Assembly: GCA_964388445.1 (NCBI GenBank)
Contig: CAYMAI010000009.1
Coordinates: 32,807 to 96,806 of the forward strand
Direction of reading: 5' to 3'
Length of the DNA: 64,000 bases
Source: an uncultured Planctomycetia bacterium
GTDB lineage: Bacteria > 4484-113 > JAGGVC01
Both the position numbers and the translations under genes were made by a program. Below the pieces are notes generated by a model. It had not been told where the DNA came from and did no database searches. It saw nothing but the letters and a program-made list of their open reading frames with translations. Of the stretch, positions 1,597-63,514 are shown in pieces. Position 1 is the first letter of the stretch. Each line of letters starts with the position of its first letter.

Positions 1597-1733
1597 CGGC
1601 GCGTTTTCGCTGGAATTTCGGGTTTGCTCCGCCTGTTTTACGGTTTTTCACGGAATTTATGCGACAACCGCGCATATTCACGAGTAAAATATATCTGTCT
1701 TTATGTATCATTTCTATTTCAGCGGAGGCGGTC

Positions 1734-4700
1734 ATGCGCCTTGTCCACATTCCCGTTATCGTCTGTCTTTTCGCGCTTTTCGGATGTTCGTCCGGAAGCC
1801 GTACGTTCACCGGCGGCATCCCGGCGGAAAATAACGAATCGGTCAAACTGCCGAGCATCGCTTCCGCGCCGGGAGATGCGGGATTCATCCAAGTCTCGCC
1901 AGGCGCCGTGGCCGGCGAGGATTACATCCCCGGCGAAATCCTAATCGGGTTCGGCGCGGATATAAAGGCGCGTGAATTCGAAGGAGCCATAACCGGTTTC
2001 AATCCGGCGTCGGGAGCGGCGTTTGTTCCTCCGTCCAATCCGGGGCTATATCAAAACAGCACGCACGCGGCGTTCGCGCGTTTTCTCGCGGCGGAATTCA
2101 ATATGAGCGTCATTCCGAATTCGGAAGCGTACGTCGAAGAATTGAATTTTTGCACGTACAGGCTTGCGGGCGGGGAATCGGCGGAGGAAACCGCAAGGAA
2201 AATCAGGCTCAAGTATCCGTCCGAAGTCAAGTATATTCAGTACAACCAAATTTTCAGGCCGATGTTTGAACCGGACGACCCGGAGTATTTGAACGGAAAC
2301 CTATGGGCGATGCCGAAAATCGAAGCGAACGTGGCGTGGGACACGACCGCCGGTGCGGGTGCGACGGTCGCGGTAATCGACAGCGGAATACGCGAAACGC
2401 ACGAAGACCTTAACTGGATTCAGCCGCCGGGTTACATTCTCGACCTAGTGAACAACGACACGATTCCGGACGACGAAAACGGCCACGGCACTCACGTCTG
2501 CGGCACGGTCGGCGCAATCGGCAATAACGGAAAGGGCGTCATCGGCGTCGCTTACGAATGCGACATTATTCCGATTAAAGCGCTGGGTTCGCAAGGCTAC
2601 GCCACATCCGGCAGCGTGGCGACCGGAATCACTCTGGCGCGAATTCTCGAAGCGGATGTAATAAATCTAAGCCTCGGCTCGTATTCCGCGGACAGGGCGA
2701 CGTTCGAAGCGTCGGTGAACGCGTGGAACGCGGGTCTAGTCATTATCGCCGCCGCCGGCAACGACAGCACGTCGAATTACTTTTTATATCCGGGATCGCA
2801 TCCGCACGTAATAAACGTCGGCGCGACAACGAGCAACGATAACCGCGCAAGCTATTCTAATCGCGGAAGAACGCTTGACATCGCGGCGCCGGGCGGCGGT
2901 ACGTTCGGCACCGGAAGAATTCGCAGCACTTCGTTCGGCGGATTCACGGGATACACGTGGATGAACGGCACCAGTATGGCGAGTCCGCACGCCGCGGGCG
3001 CCGCCGCATTGATACTCGCGAACGACCCTACGCTTACGAACAACGAAGTTCGCGGACTTCTCGAAGGCGCGGGCGACGACGTTCTTAACCAAACGGACTG
3101 GCGCGTTTTAACCAAAATCCTGCGGCTCAATCCAGCGAAATCGCTTTCCGCATCCGTAACGGATTTTCCCGAAGTGAACATTACGAGCCACACCGACGGC
3201 GACGCGGAATCGGGCAACTTTACGCTTTCCGCGAGCGTGACCGCGCCGAACGGCGGCGAGAAAATGCGCTGGTACATCGACGGCGAATACATCGGCCATT
3301 CGACCGACGCGCCATGGGAGCGTGCGATAAACGTCGTGGGAATGATACCCGGAGTGCACACTTTCACCGCGGAAGTTATCGACGCGGCGAATCTGCATGG
3401 TTATTCGTCCGTGGAAATCAACATCGCGCTTCCGTCGATGGATACGCCGTATTGGACTACCGTACAGGATCCGCCGTTTACGGACGAATGGAACGCGCTC
3501 GACTATGCCGGCGCATCGAGGTGGCAGGAAGTTGAAAAAACGCCGGGCGAAAAAATGCTCTATTTCGGCGACCCCGACAAATCCGGCGGGCCGGGATATT
3601 ATAACGACGACACCGACGCGCTTCTTTCTCCGAACTTCAATCTCGCGGGCTTAACTTCGCCGTTTTTCAAATTCGAAATGGCGTTCGAGCTTGGCGCCTA
3701 CATGATTATGACTCTGCGGGTTATCGACAGCTCCGGCAAAGACGACATAATCGGATACATCGGCACTTCGAGCGGCACGATCAGAAATCCAAACTGGCCA
3801 AATCTGTCGAAGTACGAAATCAACCTAAGCGCGTATCAGGGGAACGTGGCGCGCGTCGAGTTTTGGATGCAGCGCTATTCGCAAAGCGTCGGGCTCGGCG
3901 AGGGCGTGTACATCGACAACGTTCTCGTTTCTGAAACTTCCGCGCAGCCGATTGTGCAATTGGTTTCGCCCGACAGAAATTCTGTTATATACGGCGAAAA
4001 GGAAATCGTTACGAACATAACGGACGACAAGGGCATCGTTATAAAGGCGGAACTGGTGGAGACCGTGTCGGGCGACGTGCTTCAGACCCTGACGAACGAG
4101 CCGTTCACGTTCACGCTCGACACCACGGCCTATCCAGACGGGCTGCGCGAGTTTCACATCGTCGCTTACGACGAAATTTCGTATATGGGATTTTTCACGC
4201 CGACGGCGGTCTCGATGTTCCAAGTAATACACAATACCCCCGTCGTGATAGACGAATTCGCGCCGGTTTACGGCACGGTCGCGACGCCGGTAACGCTTAG
4301 CGGAAGCGGGTTCGGCGATTTTTACGCGGGCGGTATCGGGCCGACGGCGTACAGACATTCGTTCCTGTTTTTCACGGGCGAAGACGGGCTTGTCGAAGCC
4401 GAAGTGTCCGAAGAAACCTGGACGCAATCCTCGATTACGGCGGCGGTGCCGGATGGCGCGATAACCGGCCCGATTTACGTCGTCATCGGCGACATCGAAA
4501 CGCCGACTCCGGGCGATTTCGCGGTGGGCGAAGTGGCGGGATTCGCGTTCGTCGAACCCGCCGGCGGCGCGCTAATGCCGATGAACGGCTCTCTGAATTT
4601 CAAACTCACGCCCCAACCGTTCGCGTCCGCGGTCAGCCTCGCCTGTTTGGACGAGTCCGGCAACGCGCTGGGGATTCCATTCCCGAAAATCACTTCTTTC

Positions 4701-57886: not shown

Positions 57887-58342
57887 TCAGCTTTCCCGGC
57901 GGGATGCCGCTTCGCCCGCATCACCAGTGACGCAGATTCCTTTTTCCAACAGCTCGACTACGCACGGATCGACAATCCGGTAAAGCATCTGATTTCCGCA
58001 TCGCCTCGCCTCGATAATCCTTCGATTGGCAAGCCGCTGCAATTGATTCGAAACGGCCTGTGCGCTCATACCGATGGTTTCCGCCAGACAGCTTACGCAC
58101 ACCTCGCCTTCGCGCGCCAGAGTATGCAGCAGCCTTAGCCGCGTGTCGTTTGCGAGCACCTTGAAAACTTCCATCAGCGACCGCGCGTCTTCCTCGGTAA
58201 TCAGACTGCGCCGGGACAGCTCGAGTTCGGTTGCGCAACAGGGCAGCGACCCCGCCGCTTCCGTGCCGCGTACTCCGGCCGTTTGCACGCCGCCGGCCGC
58301 GCCGGCAAGCTCGAATTCAACTGCGGTAATGGCAATCGTCAT
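57887..58342 (-). CDS. ArsR/SmtB-family transcriptional regulator with Cys-containing N-terminal extension
   Basis: LANDTRLRLLHTLAREGEVCVSCLAETIGMSAQAVSNQLQRLANRRII winged helix. N-terminal ~45 aa has a CC pair. Heads the efflux operon. Confidence 0.8.
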   Translation of the reverse strand: MTIAITAVEFELAGAAGGVQTAGVRGTEAAGSLPCCATELELSRRSLITEEDARSLMEVFKVLANDTRLRLLHTLAREGEVCVSCLAETIGMSAQAVSNQLQRLANRRIIEARRCGNQMLYRIVDPCVVELLEKGICVTGDAGEAASRRES

Positions 58343-58459: not shown

Positions 58460-60364
58460 TCAGCTTCCGGTCTCCAGCTTGTCGAGTATTTCCACGCGCC
58501 GCGTTTCGATTAGAGTTTCGATTTCGCCTCGAAGCGCCGATATCGCTTCCGCCGCGTCGGCGGCATCGCCGTTTTCCTTCGCAAGCCGTTTTTCGAATGC
58601 GTCGAGCGTTTGAATCAGGAGCGCGCTCGTTTCTCCGATAATGTCGTCGTAAACGATGCCCACGCTTTGAGTCCGTGTCAGGGGCAGGGCGGATGACTCG
58701 GTCCAAGCCGGAAGTTCGGCGTCTATTTCGCCGAGAACGAATCCGGCGTCGGCGATTTCCTTATGCAGCCACCTCAAATATCTGCTTATGCGGTTTTCCG
58801 CGCTGTCGCCCGGATGCGCCGGACCTTGCAGCGCATATTCGCCGCCCGCTTCGACCTTTTCCGCCGCCGCCTTTTCGTATCGAACGCCCGGCTTCGGCGC
58901 CCTCGCACGCTCGCGCACGGTCGCCTCGGTTTTCGCGATTTCCACGCCGTGAACGAGCGGCAGTTCGACGGTTTCGTCCTCGACGGCGACCGCAGCGTTA
59001 TATCCAATGTTTTGAAGATGTTCCCGGAAAGATTCCAGCGCGTTTTGCTCGCCGTGAACGAGAAAAACGTTCGCCGGTTTTTCTTCCATCTGCTCAAGCC
59101 AGCCTGTCAGGTTGTCCCGGTCGGCGTGCGCGCTAAACCCGTGAATCGTCGAAATTCTCGCGTTCACCTTCACGTTTTCGCCGTAAAGTTTCACGCTTTT
59201 CACGCCTTCGACAAGCATCCTTCCAAGCGTGCCGTGCGCCTGATATCCCACGAAAAGCACGCTCGCGCGCCCTTCCGCAAGGTGGTTCGCAAGGTGATGC
59301 CTTACCCGCCCCGCCGTGCACATTCCGCTGGCGCTGATGACCACGCGCGGCCCCTTCAGGAAGTTTAGCTTTTTCGAATCGTCAACGGTGTCGGTGAATT
59401 CCAGCCACTCCGCCTTGAACGGATTAATGCCTTTGCCGAGAAGCGCCGATAGCTCTTTGTCGAAACACTCCGGATGCGCGCCGACGATTTCGGTCGCCCG
59501 CCTCGAAAGCGGCGAATCCACGTACACCTTGAACGAGGGCCAATCCTTCCGCTCGCGTTTCAGCATCGAAAGGTAATACAAAAGCGTCTGCGCCCTTCCG
59601 ACCGCAAAACTCGGGATTATCAGCGGCCCCTGCAATTTCAACATCTCCTCGATTTCCGCCGCGAGCTGGTCTTTGCGCATTCCGAAGTTTTCGTGGTTTC
59701 TGTCGCCGTACGTGCTTTCGAGCAGCAGATAATCCGCCCGCTCGAACGCCTTCGGGTCTTTCAATATCGCCGTATTCGGCATTCCAATGTCGCCGGACGC
59801 CACTACGGTCGCCGCGCCTTCCATCGTTTTCACGACTATTTCGACAGACGCGCTGCCGAGAATGTGTCCGGCGTCCCTGAACCGCACGGTGATGTTTCGG
59901 GAAAGCTCTATGCGCTCTTCATACTCCACTCCCCTGAATCTTCGCATCGCCGTTTCTACGTCCGCCGCGGTATACAGCGCATGCGACTGGACGCGGTCCC
60001 TGTCAACGTTTCGCTTTCGGGAATATTCCGCATCGCGCTCCTGTATGTGCGCGCTGTCCAGAAGTAGCGGATGCGCAAGGTCTTTCGTCGCTTCCGTGCA
60101 TACGATCGTTCCCTTGAATCCGAACTTTACGAGCCGCGGAATAAGCCCGCAGTGGTCGATATGCGCGTGCGTCAGAAGCAGAAAGTCTATGTCCGACGGG
60201 TCGAACCCGAAGCCTAGGTAATTGCGCTGCTCCAGCTCGCGGCTGCCTTGAAACATCCCGCAATCGACCAGGATTTTGCCGACGCCCGTGTTGATAAGGT
60301 GGCAGCTGCCCGTAACCGTGCCCGCGGCGCCGAGAAATGTAATCCGAATTCCTTTTGTCATCAC
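58460..60364 (-). CDS. MBL-fold beta-CASP hydrolase (RNA-metabolising metallo-beta-lactamase family) with ~180-aa C-terminal extension
   Basis: HAHIDHCG metal motif, beta-CASP and RMMBL-like regions through ~450 aa. C-terminal third unassigned. Confidence 0.8.
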   Translation of the reverse strand: MMTKGIRITFLGAAGTVTGSCHLINTGVGKILVDCGMFQGSRELEQRNYLGFGFDPSDIDFLLLTHAHIDHCGLIPRLVKFGFKGTIVCTEATKDLAHPLLLDSAHIQERDAEYSRKRNVDRDRVQSHALYTAADVETAMRRFRGVEYEERIELSRNITVRFRDAGHILGSASVEIVVKTMEGAATVVASGDIGMPNTAILKDPKAFERADYLLLESTYGDRNHENFGMRKDQLAAEIEEMLKLQGPLIIPSFAVGRAQTLLYYLSMLKRERKDWPSFKVYVDSPLSRRATEIVGAHPECFDKELSALLGKGINPFKAEWLEFTDTVDDSKKLNFLKGPRVVISASGMCTAGRVRHHLANHLAEGRASVLFVGYQAHGTLGRMLVEGVKSVKLYGENVKVNARISTIHGFSAHADRDNLTGWLEQMEEKPANVFLVHGEQNALESFREHLQNIGYNAAVAVEDETVELPLVHGVEIAKTEATVRERARAPKPGVRYEKAAAEKVEAGGEYALQGPAHPGDSAENRISRYLRWLHKEIADAGFVLGEIDAELPAWTESSALPLTRTQSVGIVYDDIIGETSALLIQTLDAFEKRLAKENGDAADAAEAISALRGEIETLIETRRVEILDKLETGS

Positions 60365-60485: not shown

Positions 60486-60830
60486 ATGCATATTTTCGAA
60501 CTATATTCCGCGCTCGGGGACGAGATTACGTACCGGATCGCGATTTTGCTCGCCAGGTATCGGTTGAGCGTGGGCGAGATTGTTTACGCGCTCGAACTCA
60601 AACAGCCTCACGTCTCGCACAAACTGGCCAAACTCAGGAAATACGGATGCGTGGCCGCCGTCAGGGAAGGGCGGCAAATCTATTACGAAATGCGGCGGCC
60701 GTGCAAAAGCGTGGTGATTTCCGGCGACGAGAGATGGCGGGAGTTGCACCCCGACGAAAGCGCCGCCTGCAGCCGCGACCTCGCAAAGCTCTCCGAAATC
60801 GTCAAAGACCTCGCCGCACGCCGCCACTGA
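60486..60830 (+). CDS. ArsR-family-like winged-helix regulator
   Basis: MHIFELYSALGDEITYRIAILLARYRLSVGEIVYALELKQPHVSHKLAKLRKYGCVAAVREGRQIYYEM fits the ArsR/SmtB HTH. Confidence 0.65.
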   Translation: MHIFELYSALGDEITYRIAILLARYRLSVGEIVYALELKQPHVSHKLAKLRKYGCVAAVREGRQIYYEMRRPCKSVVISGDERWRELHPDESAACSRDLAKLSEIVKDLAARRH

Positions 60831-60883
60831 CGGCGAAAAGCCACAGCCGCATCGCAAAACCGTGCCGCTTATCGCCCGCTTTT

Positions 60884-61202
60884 CTTGGGAGTAAGCCACG
60901 GAAGTGGCTTCTTTATATAATGCACGGAAGTGCCGCAATGAAAATTCCAGCCTTTTGCCTTGGGAGTAAGCCACGGCAGTATTTTCGCTATGTATTCCTC
61001 GGAATAAGCCAGCTTGGGAGTAAGCCACGGAAGTGGCTTCTTTATATAATGCACGGAAGTGCATTTGATAAAAAAACCGATCTAAAATCCACTTCCGGTA
61101 CCGCCTTCCGTCAAAGTCCCTCCCGGCGCATTTGCCCGACGCGCTATTCGCCGCACTTCCGTGCGGCGCATAAAGAATTTACTTCCGTAAATTACTCCCA
61201 AG
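60884..61202. repeat. Intergenic repeat array: three direct units beginning CTTGGGAGTAAGCCACGG (60884, 60959, 61013) plus one inverted unit (61152-61202); at least six GGAA/TTCC-centred palindromes
   Basis: AAGCCAC-GGAA-GTGGCTT at 60893-60910 and 61022-61039. (A)TGCAC-GGAA-GTGC(AT) at 60922-60933 and 61049-61064. CGCAC-TTCC-GTGCG at 61152-61165. AATTTAC-TTCC-GTAAATT at 61176-61193. Confidence 0.85.
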
Positions 61203-61382
61203 CGCGACCGCGGCCGCTGCCGCTGCGCGCGATGAGATACGTATCGCCCGTCGTGGTTTCGGCGCGCTCGTAGCCGTATGTATTCGATGGCAGGCCGCCG
61301 GGGGAATAGTCGTAATCGTATTGTTCGAGCGTGCTAAAGCGGGCCGTCGTCGTCCTTCAAAACGTGCTGCGTCTTAAAGCTA

Positions 61383-62219
61383 TTAATCATGGTGCACATT
61401 CTTGCTTCCATTACTTGCAACGTTTTTTTGATTAATTCCACGAATTGCGTATCCAGACAGAAACGCCACCACTCCTAGTATTATCATCATTATTGCCCAA
61501 ATATCATTCAGTTTAGATTTTGTCTGTACAATATTAGGCATACTTTTGTCTTGCAACAACGTCATTCCTTGGGTCTGAGAATCAGGATCGAAGCTTTGCC
61601 CAGGGGCATAAATGTAAACAATGTAGCGCGATACATTTTCATTGCCGCTCACTAGCGATGAAATAGAAGGAGAATACCACTCCAATACATCTGTTTTCGC
61701 AATGTCAACAAAATCCAAGTGTCGCGTAACAAGTATATATTTACCGGGATTAATGTCTGGCACAAAAAGCAGTTCTAGGGTCGGTTCATAAATATCTTGA
61801 AACTCAACATTATTAAATCCTGTATCAGCATACATATCGTATTTTGCCATAAACTTAACAACTCGTATAGTATAGGTGTAGTCTAATTCCTCGATAATGC
61901 TGTTTAACTTTATGTTAGATTGCAATGCCGAAAGATATTTATTATATGGTAGAAAATATACTTTGGTATGCTGAGACTCAATACCAGATGCTTTTAATAA
62001 AATAGGGGATCCTACTTCAGCTATATTGTTCATAACACCCTCAATCTGGTATGATGAATCGGTAGTGATACGGATACTACTATACTTACTCGCCAATGTC
62101 GCGTAATTTGGCCTGTTTGCGTTATTACTTGCAGTCGCAAACATACATAATATGTATGCTAGCATTAGAACCATTGAAAGTATAATAAATCTCATAATTA
62201 CTAAACTGCCGAAAAACAT
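61383..62219 (-). CDS. Hypothetical membrane-anchored protein encoded in low-GC island
   Basis: 278 aa, N-terminal TM/signal (MRFIILSMVLMLAYILCMF), large Asn/Ser/Tyr-rich domain, C-terminal TM. Local GC far below window average. Confidence 0.5.
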   Translation of the reverse strand: MFFGSLVIMRFIILSMVLMLAYILCMFATASNNANRPNYATLASKYSSIRITTDSSYQIEGVMNNIAEVGSPILLKASGIESQHTKVYFLPYNKYLSALQSNIKLNSIIEELDYTYTIRVVKFMAKYDMYADTGFNNVEFQDIYEPTLELLFVPDINPGKYILVTRHLDFVDIAKTDVLEWYSPSISSLVSGNENVSRYIVYIYAPGQSFDPDSQTQGMTLLQDKSMPNIVQTKSKLNDIWAIMMIILGVVAFLSGYAIRGINQKNVASNGSKNVHHD

Positions 62220-63514
62220 TCCTCAAAACAGCACTTAATGAGTTGAACGGCAAGGTTGTTTAAATTCCCTGTAGTTGGACCCGCCAAGTGCGACCAGCAA
62301 CCTGGATGGCAATGGTGCATTAACTCGTGTGCCAGCCACATAGCAGGGCTGCAAAAATCGGCCAAATTGCCGACTGCCCCGATTCCAGGTTTTTTGCAGC
62401 CAAGAATATAGCCTTGAGCCCTTGGCGTACAATCTGGGGTAAAACATGCACCGCAGGCAACCATTACTGCTTTGGGGTCAAAAGCACAGCCTTCGCATTT
62501 CCTGATTCCATAACAATTACTTTGACTCGGTACGGGGAAAAAAAAGCGGTTAACTTCGACGCAAATGAACTTTCCTGCGCCTGCCGATAACCACTTAAGC
62601 ATACATAACAAGTCGCTCTCCAGCAACTTGTACTGACCAACAGATCCACTTGACGGTAAATCCATTGGTTTATTCCTTAACGAATCAAGCCAGCAAAGAA
62701 TACAATGTTTTAATTTGGTAGCCGCGTTAAGATAAAATGAAAATGAATTTGCTGGGCATAATATTGGCATAGAAGAAAGTTCGACCTGGGAAGAAATACA
62801 GGTTCTAACGTCACAGCAAAAGGAAAGAAACTCTTCTTCAGTTTGCGCTTTTGGTCCTTCACTTGAGCACCGCCGACAATTTGATTTCGGATAATTCTTA
62901 CCTCCTCCGTCTAGTCCTTCTCCCCCTCCTCCCGTTCCTCCCGGCCCCGTTCCGCCGCCGCCGAAGCCGACCGTCGGCGTGACGGACGCCTGCGGGCGAA
63001 GATTGCCGATTTGAAACATTCCATGGGGGAAGAAATCGCCGTATCCTCTTCCGCCCGGATTAAGGTCCCTGCCCAGCATCCAGCTTTTGACGCGCGCACC
63101 TTCGTACATCAGGTTCGCACCGTTCGCAAGGCAGGATTTGCGCAAGTGGAACTTGCGCCGTGGAGTGCGGCGGTCTTGCCGCCGCCCTGTTTCCGCAGGC
63201 TTGCCTGCGGGAGACGCCGGAGCAAGCTTAGGCATTGACGGCGCGAGCAAGCTCCCGCACTCCATGGAAACGCTTCGCGTTTCACGAGGACGAGCGCGAC
63301 TCGCCGCTATATCGGATTTTTCCTGAAATGGATTTTGCAGGCTGGAAGCATGCGCTACGGACATTATTGGAAATGGATTTTGCAGGCTGGAAGCCTGCGC
63401 TACATACGAACTGCGCGCCTTTTGTGAAATAGCCCCAGATTTAAAAAAACGCTTCGGCATGTTTTCTCCGCCGGGGAAAGAATACCATGACATTGCAGTA
63501 ATTGCAAAGTTCAT
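62201..63514 (-). CDS. Cysteine-rich protein with C-terminal HExxH (zincin-like) motif; 5' boundary uncertain
   Basis: C-terminal ~230 aa (low-GC DNA 62201-~62900) have >20 Cys and WLAHELMHHCHPGCW. Upstream part (high GC) is Gly-rich (GFGGGGTGPGGTGGGGEGLDGGG) then low-complexity R/P/S-rich sequence that may not be coding. No convincing RBS found. Confidence 0.4.
   Translation of the reverse strand: MNFAITAMSWYSFPGGENMPKRFFKSGAISQKARSSYVAQASSLQNPFPIMSVAHASSLQNPFQEKSDIAASRARPRETRSVSMECGSLLAPSMPKLAPASPAGKPAETGRRQDRRTPRRKFHLRKSCLANGANLMYEGARVKSWMLGRDLNPGGRGYGDFFPHGMFQIGNLRPQASVTPTVGFGGGGTGPGGTGGGGEGLDGGGKNYPKSNCRRCSSEGPKAQTEEEFLSFCCDVRTCISSQVELSSMPILCPANSFSFYLNAATKLKHCILCWLDSLRNKPMDLPSSGSVGQYKLLESDLLCMLKWLSAGAGKFICVEVNRFFFPVPSQSNCYGIRKCEGCAFDPKAVMVACGACFTPDCTPRAQGYILGCKKPGIGAVGNLADFCSPAMWLAHELMHHCHPGCWSHLAGPTTGNLNNLAVQLIKCCFEECFSAV
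63325..63403. repeat. Tandem direct repeat, two ~34-bp copies with 45-bp period (GAAATGGATTTTGCAGGCTGGAAGC[A/C]TGCGCTAC)
   Basis: Second copy contains perfect palindrome GCAGGC-TGGAA-GCCTGC (63382-63398). The same repeat yields duplicated SSLQNPF on the minus frame. Confidence 0.85.

What the first reader, a model, noticed from the sequence alone, without database searches (positions are those of the whole stretch)
60884..61202. Dense array of GGAA-centred palindromes (operator array, REP-like elements or tandem structured RNA) next to an ArsR-like gene
In ~320 bp of intergenic DNA there are three direct units (start CTTGGGAGTAAGCCACGG) and one inverted unit. Together they carry at least six palindromes of the form NNNCAC-GGAA-GTGNNN. 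The most perfect are AAGCCAC-GGAA-GTGGCTT (twice), ATGCAC-GGAA-GTGCAT, CGCAC-TTCC-GTGCG and AATTTAC-TTCC-GTAAATT.

The central GGAA is asymmetric and would form a GNRA tetraloop if transcribed from the plus strand. The units also contain TATATAAT. The geometry does not match CRISPR (irregular spacing, palindromic units, no cas).

Possibilities:
- a multi-site operator for the flanking ArsR-like regulator (60486-60830), or for the efflux ArsR (57887-58342);
- a REP/MITE-like family;
- tandem small hairpin RNAs.

The array sits exactly at the border of the low-GC island.
Basis: seen in the sequence. Interest (0 to 1): 0.65.

Follow-up and report, generated by a model that had tools for sequence, protein, structure and literature searches.

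The report
REP-type palindromic repeat cluster (RAYT-associated)
The hairpin array is a cluster of small mobile palindromic repeats (REP/REPIN type) that occur at several places in this uncultured bacterium's lineage and also flank their own tyrosine transposase gene, so it is an ordinary kind of bacterial repeat and not a regulator's binding site.

Summary
Window 60884-61202 holds three direct units and one inverted ~60-nt unit. Each unit has a head (CTTGGGAGTAA) followed by two 7-bp hairpins that share the core AC-GGAA-GT.

It is not specific to the ArsR-like gene:
- The same units lie beside unrelated genes on metagenome contigs whose tetranucleotide signature matches the window.
- On two of those contigs they flank, in inverted orientation, a 181-aa REP-associated tyrosine transposase (RAYT; NCBIfam equivalog; only PDB hit is E. 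coli TnpA_REP).
- The syntenic ArsR-like locus of a related species has no array.
- Both stems covary, which points to folded single strands.
- Related RAYTs (57-59% identity) carry the same head and double-hairpin layout with GCAA or GCGA loops.

Best reading: a BIME-like REP cluster. Positions 61013-61202 form a head-out inverted dimer (REPIN-like), preceded by two tandem units. The cluster is spread by the RAYT on single-stranded DNA and may act incidentally as a terminator between convergent genes.

The operator reading is not supported, and nothing favours a dedicated-RNA reading. This is a new member of a known kind and of low interest. The mildly unusual features are the two-hairpin unit and a (T/A)TGG head instead of GT(A/G)G.

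The parts
60846..60883 (+). Left accessory module (GCCGCATCGCAAAACCGTGCCGCTTATCGCCCGCTTTT) that precedes the head of terminal units
   Evidence: It is homologous to the sequence in front of the unit in L011 and L019 (two tandem copies in L019) and partly in L015, where the neighbouring genes differ.
60884..60943 (+). Unit 1: head CTTGGGAGTAA, hairpin 1 at 60893-60910 (AAGCCAC-GGAA-GTGGCTT), T-rich linker, hairpin 2 core at 60921-60932
   Evidence: The covariance model scores it 74.8 bits. Hairpin 1 plus CTTTATATAA matches the terminator-like pattern on the + strand. Short-read contigs carrying the ArsR-like gene break inside this unit.
60959..61012 (+). Unit 2: degenerate unit with an intact head and decayed hairpins
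   Evidence: It is 72% identical to unit 1 and scores 21.2 bits, E 6e-4. The same unit 2 + unit 3 composite is found next to an acylphosphatase-like gene in L015.
61013..61072 (+). Unit 3: left arm of the head-out inverted dimer; hairpin 1 at 61022-61039, hairpin 2 at 61048-61065 (AATGCAC-GGAA-GTGCATT)
   Evidence: The covariance model scores it 86.1 bits. Both stems are perfect 7-bp stems.
61073..61142 (.). Conserved spacer of the dimer; it contains a decayed inverted hairpin remnant (AATCCACTTCCG, 61086-61097)
   Evidence: The spacer travels with the arms. L018 13635-13766 is 97% identical to 61013-61144 behind a different gene, and L011 is 93% identical over 61013-61220. A weak minus-strand model hit covers 61041-61099 (13.3 bits).
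61143..61202 (-). Unit 4: right arm of the dimer, inverted; hairpin 1 at 61176-61193 (AATTTAC-TTCC-GTAAATT on +), hairpin 2 at 61149-61168
   Evidence: The covariance model scores it 80.0 bits on the - strand. The hairpin 1 stem shows compensatory changes GCC/GGC to TTT/AAA relative to units 1 and 3.
61013..61202 (.). REPIN-like element: two units with heads outward and a conserved 70-nt spacer (190 bp)
   Evidence: The arms are 51-53 nt and 77-78% complementary. The whole region folds with z = -6.4 (+ strand) and -7.5 (- strand). A second copy sits at a different locus, L018.
60486..60830 (+). ArsR-like gene (context only, not part of the element); the array lies 3' of it
   Evidence: Pfam HTH_5. 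Orthologue loci lack the array.
61383..62219 (-). Convergent 278-aa membrane-protein gene of the strain-variable low-GC cassette (context only)
   Evidence: ORF list. It has no Pfam family. Homology between strains stops at 61372.

Best explanation
The array is a cluster of repetitive extragenic palindromes, comparable to a BIME, belonging to a lineage-specific REP family whose cognate enzyme is a REP-associated tyrosine transposase (RAYT, a Y1 HUH enzyme).

Each ~60-nt unit has a head, (T/A)TGGGAGTAA, followed by two hairpins that share the invariant core AC-GGAA-GT. Positions 61013-61202 form a head-out inverted dimer with a conserved spacer (REPIN-like). Units 1 and 2 are extra head-to-tail copies.

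Inferred mechanism: when the DNA is single-stranded, the hairpins fold. The RAYT recognises the head plus the hairpin, cleaves and rejoins, and so copies or rearranges units. Tandem copies then arise and are lost locally.

At this site the cluster sits between two convergent genes, and each gene meets a sense-oriented hairpin followed by a T-rich tract. It therefore probably also serves, incidentally, as a transcript 3'-end or terminator structure.

What is shown: the repeat structure, the stem covariation, the dispersal to other loci, the RAYT flanked by inverted units, and the absence of the array from orthologous loci.

What is inferred: RAYT-mediated mobilisation, the single-stranded DNA substrate, and terminator activity.
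For: 1. A metagenome scan for the unit found 12 stretches. Judged by their flanks, they represent at least 7 gene contexts besides the window: panD, an sdhB-like gene, an acylphosphatase-like gene, an exonuclease-like gene, a glycosyltransferase-like gene, the RAYT, and other toxin-cassette variants.
2. L017 and L021 encode a 181-aa protein that meets the NCBIfam equivalog for REP-associated tyrosine transposase (81.9 bits, cutoff 80, E 4e-23) and Pfam Y1_Tnp. Its only PDB match is E. coli TnpA_REP (4ER8), with the HUH and Tyr motifs aligned.
3. That gene is flanked by one unit on the + strand abutting its stop codon and by at least 4 tandem units on the - strand upstream of its start, heads outward.
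4. The RAYT contig and the other unit-bearing contigs share the window's tetranucleotide signature. Their correlation with the window is r = 0.96-0.985. The window against itself gives 0.968, and the highest of 69 control loci is 0.778.
5. Stem covariation: three hairpin 1 positions switch CG/CG/GC to TA/TA/TA. Hairpin 2 positions 5-7 show two to three pair types each, with 16 of 18 copies paired. The loop and its closing pairs are conserved.
6. Related RAYTs (52-59% identity) are flanked by REPs with the same GGAGT head. Two of them (L113, L114) have the same double-hairpin layout with GCAA or GCGA loops.
7. The inverted dimer with its spacer recurs at 97% identity behind another gene, in L018.
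8. The syntenic locus of a related species (ArsR-like protein 75% identical) has no unit.
9. Published definitions fit. RAYT genes are always flanked by two inverted REPs, and REPs cluster in BIMEs (PMC2817692). Head-head dimers have conserved spacers, clusters include tandem units, and some RAYT-like genes carry double-palindromic inverted repeats (PMC3733652).
Against: - No RAYT gene lies in the 64-kb window. The link between the window's genome and the RAYT contig rests on identical repeat sequences, the same metagenome project and the composition signature, not on an assembled genome.
- The copy number per genome is unknown. Only one cluster occurs in 64 kb, and only 12 stretches were found in the metagenome collection. 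The family may number in the tens rather than the more than 100 typical of classical REPs.
- The head is (T/A)TGG, not the canonical GT(A/G)G.
- No transposition, cleavage or transcription data exist.
- The pattern found nothing in 185,579 reference genomes, so no complete genome could be counted.
Confidence: 0.85

Rival explanations
1. The palindromes are a multi-site operator bound by the adjacent ArsR-like regulator (60486-60830) or by the efflux-operon ArsR (57887-58342).
For: The palindromes are near-perfect and lie beside a winged-helix regulator gene.
Against: - The array is 3' of the gene, between convergent genes, and no promoter-like site is found in it.
- The syntenic orthologue locus and other homologue loci have no such units.
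- The same units lie next to unrelated genes and around a transposase.
- Stem bases covary while the asymmetric loop is fixed. This fits folding, not recognition of duplex half-sites by a dimer.
Confidence: 0.03
2. The units are primarily RNA elements: tandem structured small RNAs, or selected 3'-UTR terminator and stabiliser hairpins with GNRA tetraloops. On this view, their dispersal reflects selection at the RNA level.
For: - The GGAA loops are GNRA-type, and related families have GCAA or GCGA loops.
- Hairpin 1 plus a T-rich tail fits a terminator-like pattern.
- Each convergent gene meets a sense-oriented unit (inferred).
- The stems covary.
Against: - No Rfam family matches at gathering or at E<=1.
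- Units occur both upstream (L015) and downstream of genes, and in tandem arrays of four or more, which a terminator does not need.
- The units flank a Y1 transposase heads-outward, the signature of a DNA-level element.
- The two roles are not exclusive, because REPs are known to affect mRNA 3' ends.
Confidence: 0.07
3. The 319-bp region is a conventional MITE with 53-bp terminal inverted repeats, mobilised by a DDE transposase.
For: Inverted arms of 53 nt bound the region, and the element recurs elsewhere.
Against: - No target-site duplication is visible at the ends of the window, L011 or L018 copies.
- The only transposase found flanked by these arms is a Y1 RAYT.
- Single units and head-to-tail arrays are common, which is typical of REPs and not of MITEs.
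Confidence: 0.03
4. The array is a recombination site that mediates exchange of the adjacent strain-variable toxin-like cassette.
For: - Strains differ immediately to the right, from 61373 onward.
- In L016 the cassette has a unit on both sides.
- In L011 the left flank has been replaced, leaving the last 14 nt of the ArsR-like gene.
Against: - The homology break at 61372/61373 is 170 bp from the array, not at it.
- Units occur at loci with no such cassette, such as panD, the sdhB-like gene and the exonuclease-like gene.
- No site-specific recombinase lies nearby.
- REP clusters as passive rearrangement hot spots would explain the same facts.
Confidence: 0.05

Closest known systems
REP / BIME / REPIN elements with their RAYT (for example E. 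coli REP-TnpA_REP, Pseudomonas fluorescens REPINs, Stenotrophomonas REPs)
   Same: - Short hairpin-forming extragenic repeats with a conserved 5' head; TTGGGAG here against GTGGGAG in P. fluorescens SBW25 (PMC2817692).
- They occur singly, as inverted head-out dimers with a conserved spacer, and in clusters.
- The cognate Y1 HUH transposase gene is flanked by inverted copies.
- Compensatory changes keep the stems paired.
   Different: - The head is (T/A)TGG instead of GT(A/G)G.
- Each unit carries two hairpins with the same loop core, rather than one.
- Head-to-tail tandem arrays with a 75-nt period are prominent, whereas PMC3733652 reports HT dimers as rare in most families.
- The copy number seems modest.
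- The host is an unclassified uncultured bacterium.
TIRtrons / TIRYT (RAYT-like genes flanked by long inverted repeats, some of them double palindromes; Di Nocera et al. 2013, PMC3733652)
   Same: - A RAYT-like gene is flanked by ~55-nt inverted repeats containing two self-complementary tracts.
- The repeat family is moderately abundant and organised in dimers or clusters.
- The closest named homologues of the transposase include Acidobacteria MAGs, the phylum where the sharpest TIRYT group was described.
   Different: - The GGGGWSAS motif reported for many such inverted repeats is not present.
- The first hairpin with its head looks like a genuine REP, related to the GTGG-headed REPs of sister RAYTs.
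- Membership of a TIRYT protein group was not tested.
Subterminal hairpins of IS200/IS605 insertion sequences
   Same: A Y1 HUH transposase recognises folded single-stranded hairpins near the element ends, and no target duplication is made.
   Different: - Here the transposase carries the RAYT signature (NCBIfam REP_Tyr_transpos; 4ER8 is the only PDB hit).
- The repeats far outnumber the gene and are not IS ends.
BOX elements of Streptococcus pneumoniae and Correia elements of Neisseria
   Same: Modular small repeats with complementary ends and a variable number of internal modules, lying in intergenic regions and able to form long stem-loops.
   Different: Those families have no associated Y1 transposase and no head-plus-hairpin REP architecture. 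There is no sequence similarity.

Membership tests
REP/RAYT system (REPtron, REPIN) | A cognate RAYT: a Y1 transposase with an HUH motif, a catalytic Tyr and the RAYT-specific signature | tested here: met
   The 181-aa protein of L017 and L021 scores 81.9 bits against NCBIfam NF047646 (cutoff 80) and 24 bits against Pfam PF01797. In the alignment to 4ER8, NHYHFI matches EHMHCI and YVNQNPVKHG matches YIYINPVKHG. The gene is not in the window. It lies on a contig whose tetranucleotide signature matches the window (r = 0.983).
REP/RAYT system (REPtron, REPIN) | The RAYT gene is flanked by two repeats in inverted orientation | tested here: met
   In L017 a unit lies at 1686-1745 (+), abutting the stop codon. 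Units at 2341-2401, 2416-2476, 2491-2551 and 2566 onward (-) lie upstream of the start. L021 has the same arrangement.
REP/RAYT system (REPtron, REPIN) | The repeat is a short palindrome that folds as a hairpin, with stems kept by compensatory change | tested here: met
   Both hairpins have 7-bp stems. Hairpin 1 is paired at all seven stem positions in 18 of 18 distinct units, with three covarying positions. Hairpin 2 positions 5-7 are paired in 16 of 18 units, with two to three pair types each.
REP/RAYT system (REPtron, REPIN) | A conserved GT(A/G)G head at the 5' end | tested here: not met
   The head is CTTGGGAGTAA, with CATGGGAG in some copies, so the tetranucleotide is (T/A)TGG, or GTAA next to the stem. 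Sister RAYTs have GTGGAGT (L111, L115), TTGGAGT (L113) and CGGAGT/TTGGGAGT (L114). The head is therefore homologous but not canonical.
REP/RAYT system (REPtron, REPIN) | Extragenic location | tested here: met
   In the window the array lies between the stop codons of convergent genes. In L012, L013, L015, L016 and L018 the units lie between ORFs. The RAYT-proximal unit overlaps only the stop codon.
REP/RAYT system (REPtron, REPIN) | Many dispersed copies per genome (tens to hundreds) | not testable with these tools
   No genome of this organism is available (0 hits in genome contigs). The lower bound is about 8 distinct gene contexts across related strains and one cluster in the 64-kb window.
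REP/RAYT system (REPtron, REPIN) | Inverted doublets with a conserved spacer that behave as a unit (REPIN) | tested here: met
   The dimer 61013-61202 recurs with its spacer in L018 (97% over 132 nt, up to the contig end) and in L011 (93% over 209 nt).
ArsR/SmtB operator | An inverted repeat overlapping the promoter of the regulated operon, conserved together with the regulator gene | tested here: not met
   The array is 3' of the gene and contains no promoter-like site. It is absent from loci L102-L110, which carry homologues at 56-75% identity.
CRISPR array | Identical repeats separated by unique spacers of similar length, usually with cas genes nearby | tested here: not met
   In tandem arrays the whole 75-nt period repeats, including the inter-unit sequence. 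Spacing in the window is irregular (75 and 54 nt), and one unit is inverted.
Known RNA family (Rfam 15) | A match to a curated covariance model | tested here: not met
   There are no matches at gathering score in the window and none at E<=1 in 60700-61400.

The most novel reading that the evidence does not exclude
This RAYT clade may use a two-hairpin recognition element. A conserved GGAGT-headed hairpin and a second hairpin with a free-varying stem carry the same GNRA-type loop and closing pair: AC-GGAA-GT here, and GCAA (or GCGA in hairpin 1) in sister systems. The enzyme would then read loop identity on two folded single-stranded DNA hairpins at once. That would be a substrate architecture different from the single hairpin plus GTAG seen in the solved E. 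coli TnpA_REP complex. It might also explain the unusual head-to-tail 75-nt arrays.
Probability: 0.25. Interest if true: 0.45.

Novelty: new member of a known kind. Interest (0 to 1): 0.25.

Why it matters
The main value is in annotation. The result removes a tempting but wrong reading (an operator array or a novel RNA) and explains why short-read assemblies of this organism break just after the ArsR-like gene.

It adds a REP-RAYT system from an unclassified, uncultured bacterial lineage whose closest named relatives are only about 60-65% identical in UvrB.

It also shows that a double-hairpin unit with matched GNRA-type loops is shared by several related RAYTs. This gives biochemists a compact, testable substrate for asking how RAYTs choose their DNA.

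The cluster also marks a strain-variable spot next to a toxin-like cassette, which may be useful for strain typing.

Tried and rejected
- Rfam found nothing at gathering score over the whole window, nor at E<=1 over 60700-61400.
- A scan of 185,579 reference genomes for CTTGGGAGTAANNNACGGAAGT gave 0 hits. A scan of viral contigs also gave 0 hits.
- I used the second genome scan on the neighbouring beta-CASP protein, hoping for close relatives with orthologous loci. The best matches were only 41-49% identical and taxonomically scattered, so they were useless for synteny or naming.
- A literature search for the assembly and run accessions found no papers.
- The UvrB homologue search, meant to name the organism, found the nearest relatives labelled only 'bacterium'. 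The nearest named ones are Armatimonadota and Bacillota at about 60-64%.
- I first took all 12 metagenome stretches for independent loci. Comparing flanks showed that several are the same locus in other strains, so I lowered the dispersal count.
- I considered the TATATAAT as a -10 box and rejected it. There is no -35 partner, and the linker is not conserved among units.
- I considered CRISPR and rejected it (see the membership test).
- I looked for target-site duplications at the element ends and found none.

Full report
**The observation**

The repeat finder reports three direct copies of a 50-nt unit at 60884, 60959 and 61013. The first and third are identical; the second is 72% identical. 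It also reports a 53-nt inverted arm at 61150-61202 that is 77-78% complementary to the direct units.

A scan for perfect stems around GGAA/TTCC finds five stems of at least 7 bp, all in this region. All six exact ACGGAAGT and all five exact CACGGAAGTG in the 64-kb window lie here. The neighbouring gene at 60486-60830 is ArsR-like (Pfam HTH_5). The array lies between that gene's stop codon and the stop codon of a convergent 278-aa gene at 61383-62219.

**Anatomy of the unit**

Comparing the four window units with copies from elsewhere gives this consensus: CTTGGGAGTAA, then N3-ACGGAAGT-N3 (hairpin 1), then TTCTTnnT plus a variable linker, then N2-3-GCACGGAAGTGC-N2-3 (hairpin 2).

Among 18 distinct units, hairpin 1 is paired at all seven stem positions. 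It exists in two forms, GCC/GGC and TTT/AAA, which amounts to three compensated positions. In hairpin 2 the inner pairs and the loop are almost invariant. Positions 5-7 carry two to three different Watson-Crick pairs each and are paired in 16 of 18 units.

The stems are therefore maintained as stems, while the asymmetric loop GGAA and its closing A-C/G-T pairs are fixed. No sigma-70-like promoter is called in the array.

**Dispersal**

Within the window the family is confined to this one cluster. A covariance model built from 15 units (R1) and run without filters scores only 61013-61072 (86 bits), 61143-61202 on the minus strand (80), 60884-60943 (75), 60959-61012 (21) and a 13-bit remnant.

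Outside the window, the pattern found nothing in reference genomes or viral contigs. It found 12 stretches in metagenome contigs of the JAANMU and JAANMV assemblies. The related JAANMW assembly holds a near-identical copy of the window locus (L008).

Comparing flanks shows that several of these stretches are the same locus in other strains (L010, L014, L020, and one end of L016). Others lie in different surroundings:
- L012: a tandem array with a 75-nt period, downstream of panD.
- L013: a single unit between a large exported protein gene and an sdhB-like gene.
- L015: a unit 2 + unit 3 composite upstream of an acylphosphatase-like gene.
- L018: unit 3 with the same internal spacer, downstream of an exonuclease-like gene.
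- L016 (11188-11247): a variant unit downstream of a glycosyltransferase-like gene.
- L011 and L019: versions beside toxin-cassette variants, with two units and one unit respectively.

These contigs have the same tetranucleotide signature as the window. Their correlation with the window is r = 0.964-0.985. The window against itself gives 0.968, and 69 unrelated control loci average 0.27 with a maximum of 0.778.

**The transposase**

In L017 and L021 the units surround a 181-aa ORF. The protein meets the NCBIfam equivalog for REP-associated tyrosine transposase (81.9 bits against a cutoff of 80, E 4e-23) and Pfam Y1_Tnp. Its only match among solved structures is E. coli TnpA_REP (4ER8), with the HUH motif (NHYHFI) and the tyrosine motif (YVNQNPVKHG) aligned.

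One unit on the plus strand abuts the gene's stop codon. At least four tandem units on the minus strand lie upstream of its start, so the heads point outward. [quoted passage not shown] No RAYT lies in the window itself.

**Sister systems**

The RAYT has thousands of homologues. I fetched four of them, at 52-58% identity to it, and looked at their flanks.
- L111 and L115 carry classical GTGG-headed single hairpins arranged in inverted doublets.
- L113 carries CTTGGAGT-GAGAAAC-GCAA-GTTTCTC-CTTCAAAT-CTGAAC-GCAA-GTTCAG on one side. On the other side it has the same head and first hairpin with a different second stem but the same GCAA loop.
- L114 carries (T)TGGGAGTAA- or CGGAGTAA-headed double hairpins with GCAA or GCGA loops.

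The head GGAGT is thus shared by all four sister systems. Two of them (L113, L114) also share the layout of a conserved first hairpin, a short linker and a second hairpin with a free-varying stem. Within each of the double-hairpin systems, hairpin 2 keeps a single loop (GGAA here, GCAA in L113 and L114), and hairpin 1 has the same loop or, in some L114 units, GCGA.

**Against the operator reading**

The ArsR-like protein family is small (20 proteins).
- The syntenic locus of a related species has the same beta-CASP, ArsR, HlyD and ABC neighbours and an ArsR-like protein 75% identical. There, a 170-bp spacer with no unit is followed by a urocanase gene.
- Loci with homologues at 56-63% identity also lack units.
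- The units are found at loci with no ArsR-like gene, and the array is downstream of the gene, not at a promoter.

**Against a dedicated RNA**

Rfam gives nothing. The whole region folds much better than shuffles on both strands (z = -6.4 and -7.5), as any inverted-repeat cluster would.

Hairpin 1 of units 1 and 3, followed by CTTTATATAA, fits a terminator-like pattern on the plus strand. Unit 4 presents the same layout to the convergent minus-strand gene. A terminator or 3'-end role is therefore plausible as a side effect, as is known for REPs in enterobacteria (background knowledge; summarised in PMC3733652 and PMC3479197).

**Interpretation**

The array is a BIME-like cluster of a REP family. 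Positions 61013-61202 form a head-out inverted dimer with a conserved spacer, which Di Nocera et al. call an HH dimer and Bertels and Rainey a REPIN (PMC3733652, PMC3116915). It recurs with its spacer at another locus (L018, 97%). Units 1 and 2 are head-to-tail additions.

Copy number at related loci differs between strains: one unit in L019, two in L011, four in the window and L008. This variation, together with the identical 50-nt copies, explains why nearly all short-read contigs carrying the ArsR-like gene stop about 80 nt after its stop codon.

Departures from textbook REPs:
- The head is (T/A)TGG rather than GT(A/G)G.
- Each unit has two hairpins. This has a precedent in the 'double palindromic TIRs' of RAYT-like genes and in REP-plus-stem-loop composites (PMC3733652).
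- Tandem head-to-tail arrays are prominent.
- The copy number appears modest.

**Limits**

No complete genome of the organism is available, so copy number and the presence of the RAYT in the very same genome are inferred. No biochemical or transcript data exist. The organism could not be named. Its UvrB has a 100% match in NCBI and Logan records without a name, and the nearest relatives are labelled only 'bacterium'.

Noticed in passing
window 61373-63514 (ORFs 61383-62219 - and 62201-63514 -): The low-GC segment looks like a polymorphic toxin-type cassette. One long ORF has an N-terminal part conserved in other strains (LMYEGARVKSWMLGRD; also in L011 and L019), a Gly-rich linker and a variable Cys-rich C-terminal part with an HExxH motif (HELMHH; LVHELTH in L019). 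It is followed by a 278-aa membrane protein. Neither protein has a Pfam family. Homology between strains stops exactly at 61372/61373, and other strains carry different genes there.
   Followed up: partly
window 63325-63403: Two 34-nt direct copies (GAAATGGATTTTGCAGGCTGGAAGC[A/C]TGCGCTAC, spacing 45) contain another GGAA-type hairpin, GCAGGC-TGGAA-GCCTGC. Similar sequence occurs in L011 (4940-5104) and L016 (11409-11480). On the minus strand they would encode AQASSLQNPFP repeats near the start of the toxin-like ORF. It is unclear whether this is a coding repeat or a second small repeat family.
   Followed up: partly
L011 6560-6600 compared with window 60817-60883: In L011 the sequence before the unit keeps the last 14 nt of the ArsR-like gene, including its stop codon, and the following ~50 nt. 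The gene itself is replaced by an isoaspartyl-peptidase/asparaginase-like gene. This is a rearrangement junction right beside the repeat cluster.
   Followed up: partly
L001-L007, L009 (Logan contigs), ends: Eight of the nine contigs shown that carry the exact ArsR-like protein end 79-82 nt after its stop codon, inside unit 1. The assembly breaks are caused by the identical 50-nt copies.
   Followed up: yes
L113 268-335 and 958-1018; L114 873-925, 969-1020 and 1596-1646: Sister RAYTs (57-59% identical) are flanked by double-hairpin units with the same GGAGT head but GCAA or GCGA loops. Hairpin 2 keeps the GCAA loop in every copy (hairpin 1 has GCAA or GCGA), and the second stem differs from copy to copy.
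   Followed up: partly
L115 2750-2940 and 3555-3735 (sample SRR21120499, which also yielded the syntenic ArsR-like locus L103): A RAYT 52% identical to the one found here is embedded in complex clusters of GTGG-headed REPs (TGTGGAGTGCGGAGGCCTCAGACTCCGCT). If this contig comes from the related species, that species has a different REP family and none at the ArsR-like locus.
   Followed up: no
window 58460-60364 (-) and 60486-60830 (+): The small ArsR-like gene is divergently paired with a 634-aa beta-CASP metallo-beta-lactamase RNase-like gene. The pairing is kept in the related species (L102-L105) but not in more distant homologues, where DinB-like (IMS family) or other genes are the neighbours.
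   Followed up: no
L020 2034-2093 compared with window 61143-61202: A strain 99.5% identical to the window over 2.1 kb has CATGGGAG instead of CTTGGGAG in the head of unit 4. The same A variant appears in the RAYT-proximal unit (L017 1686), so the second head position is polymorphic.
   Followed up: no
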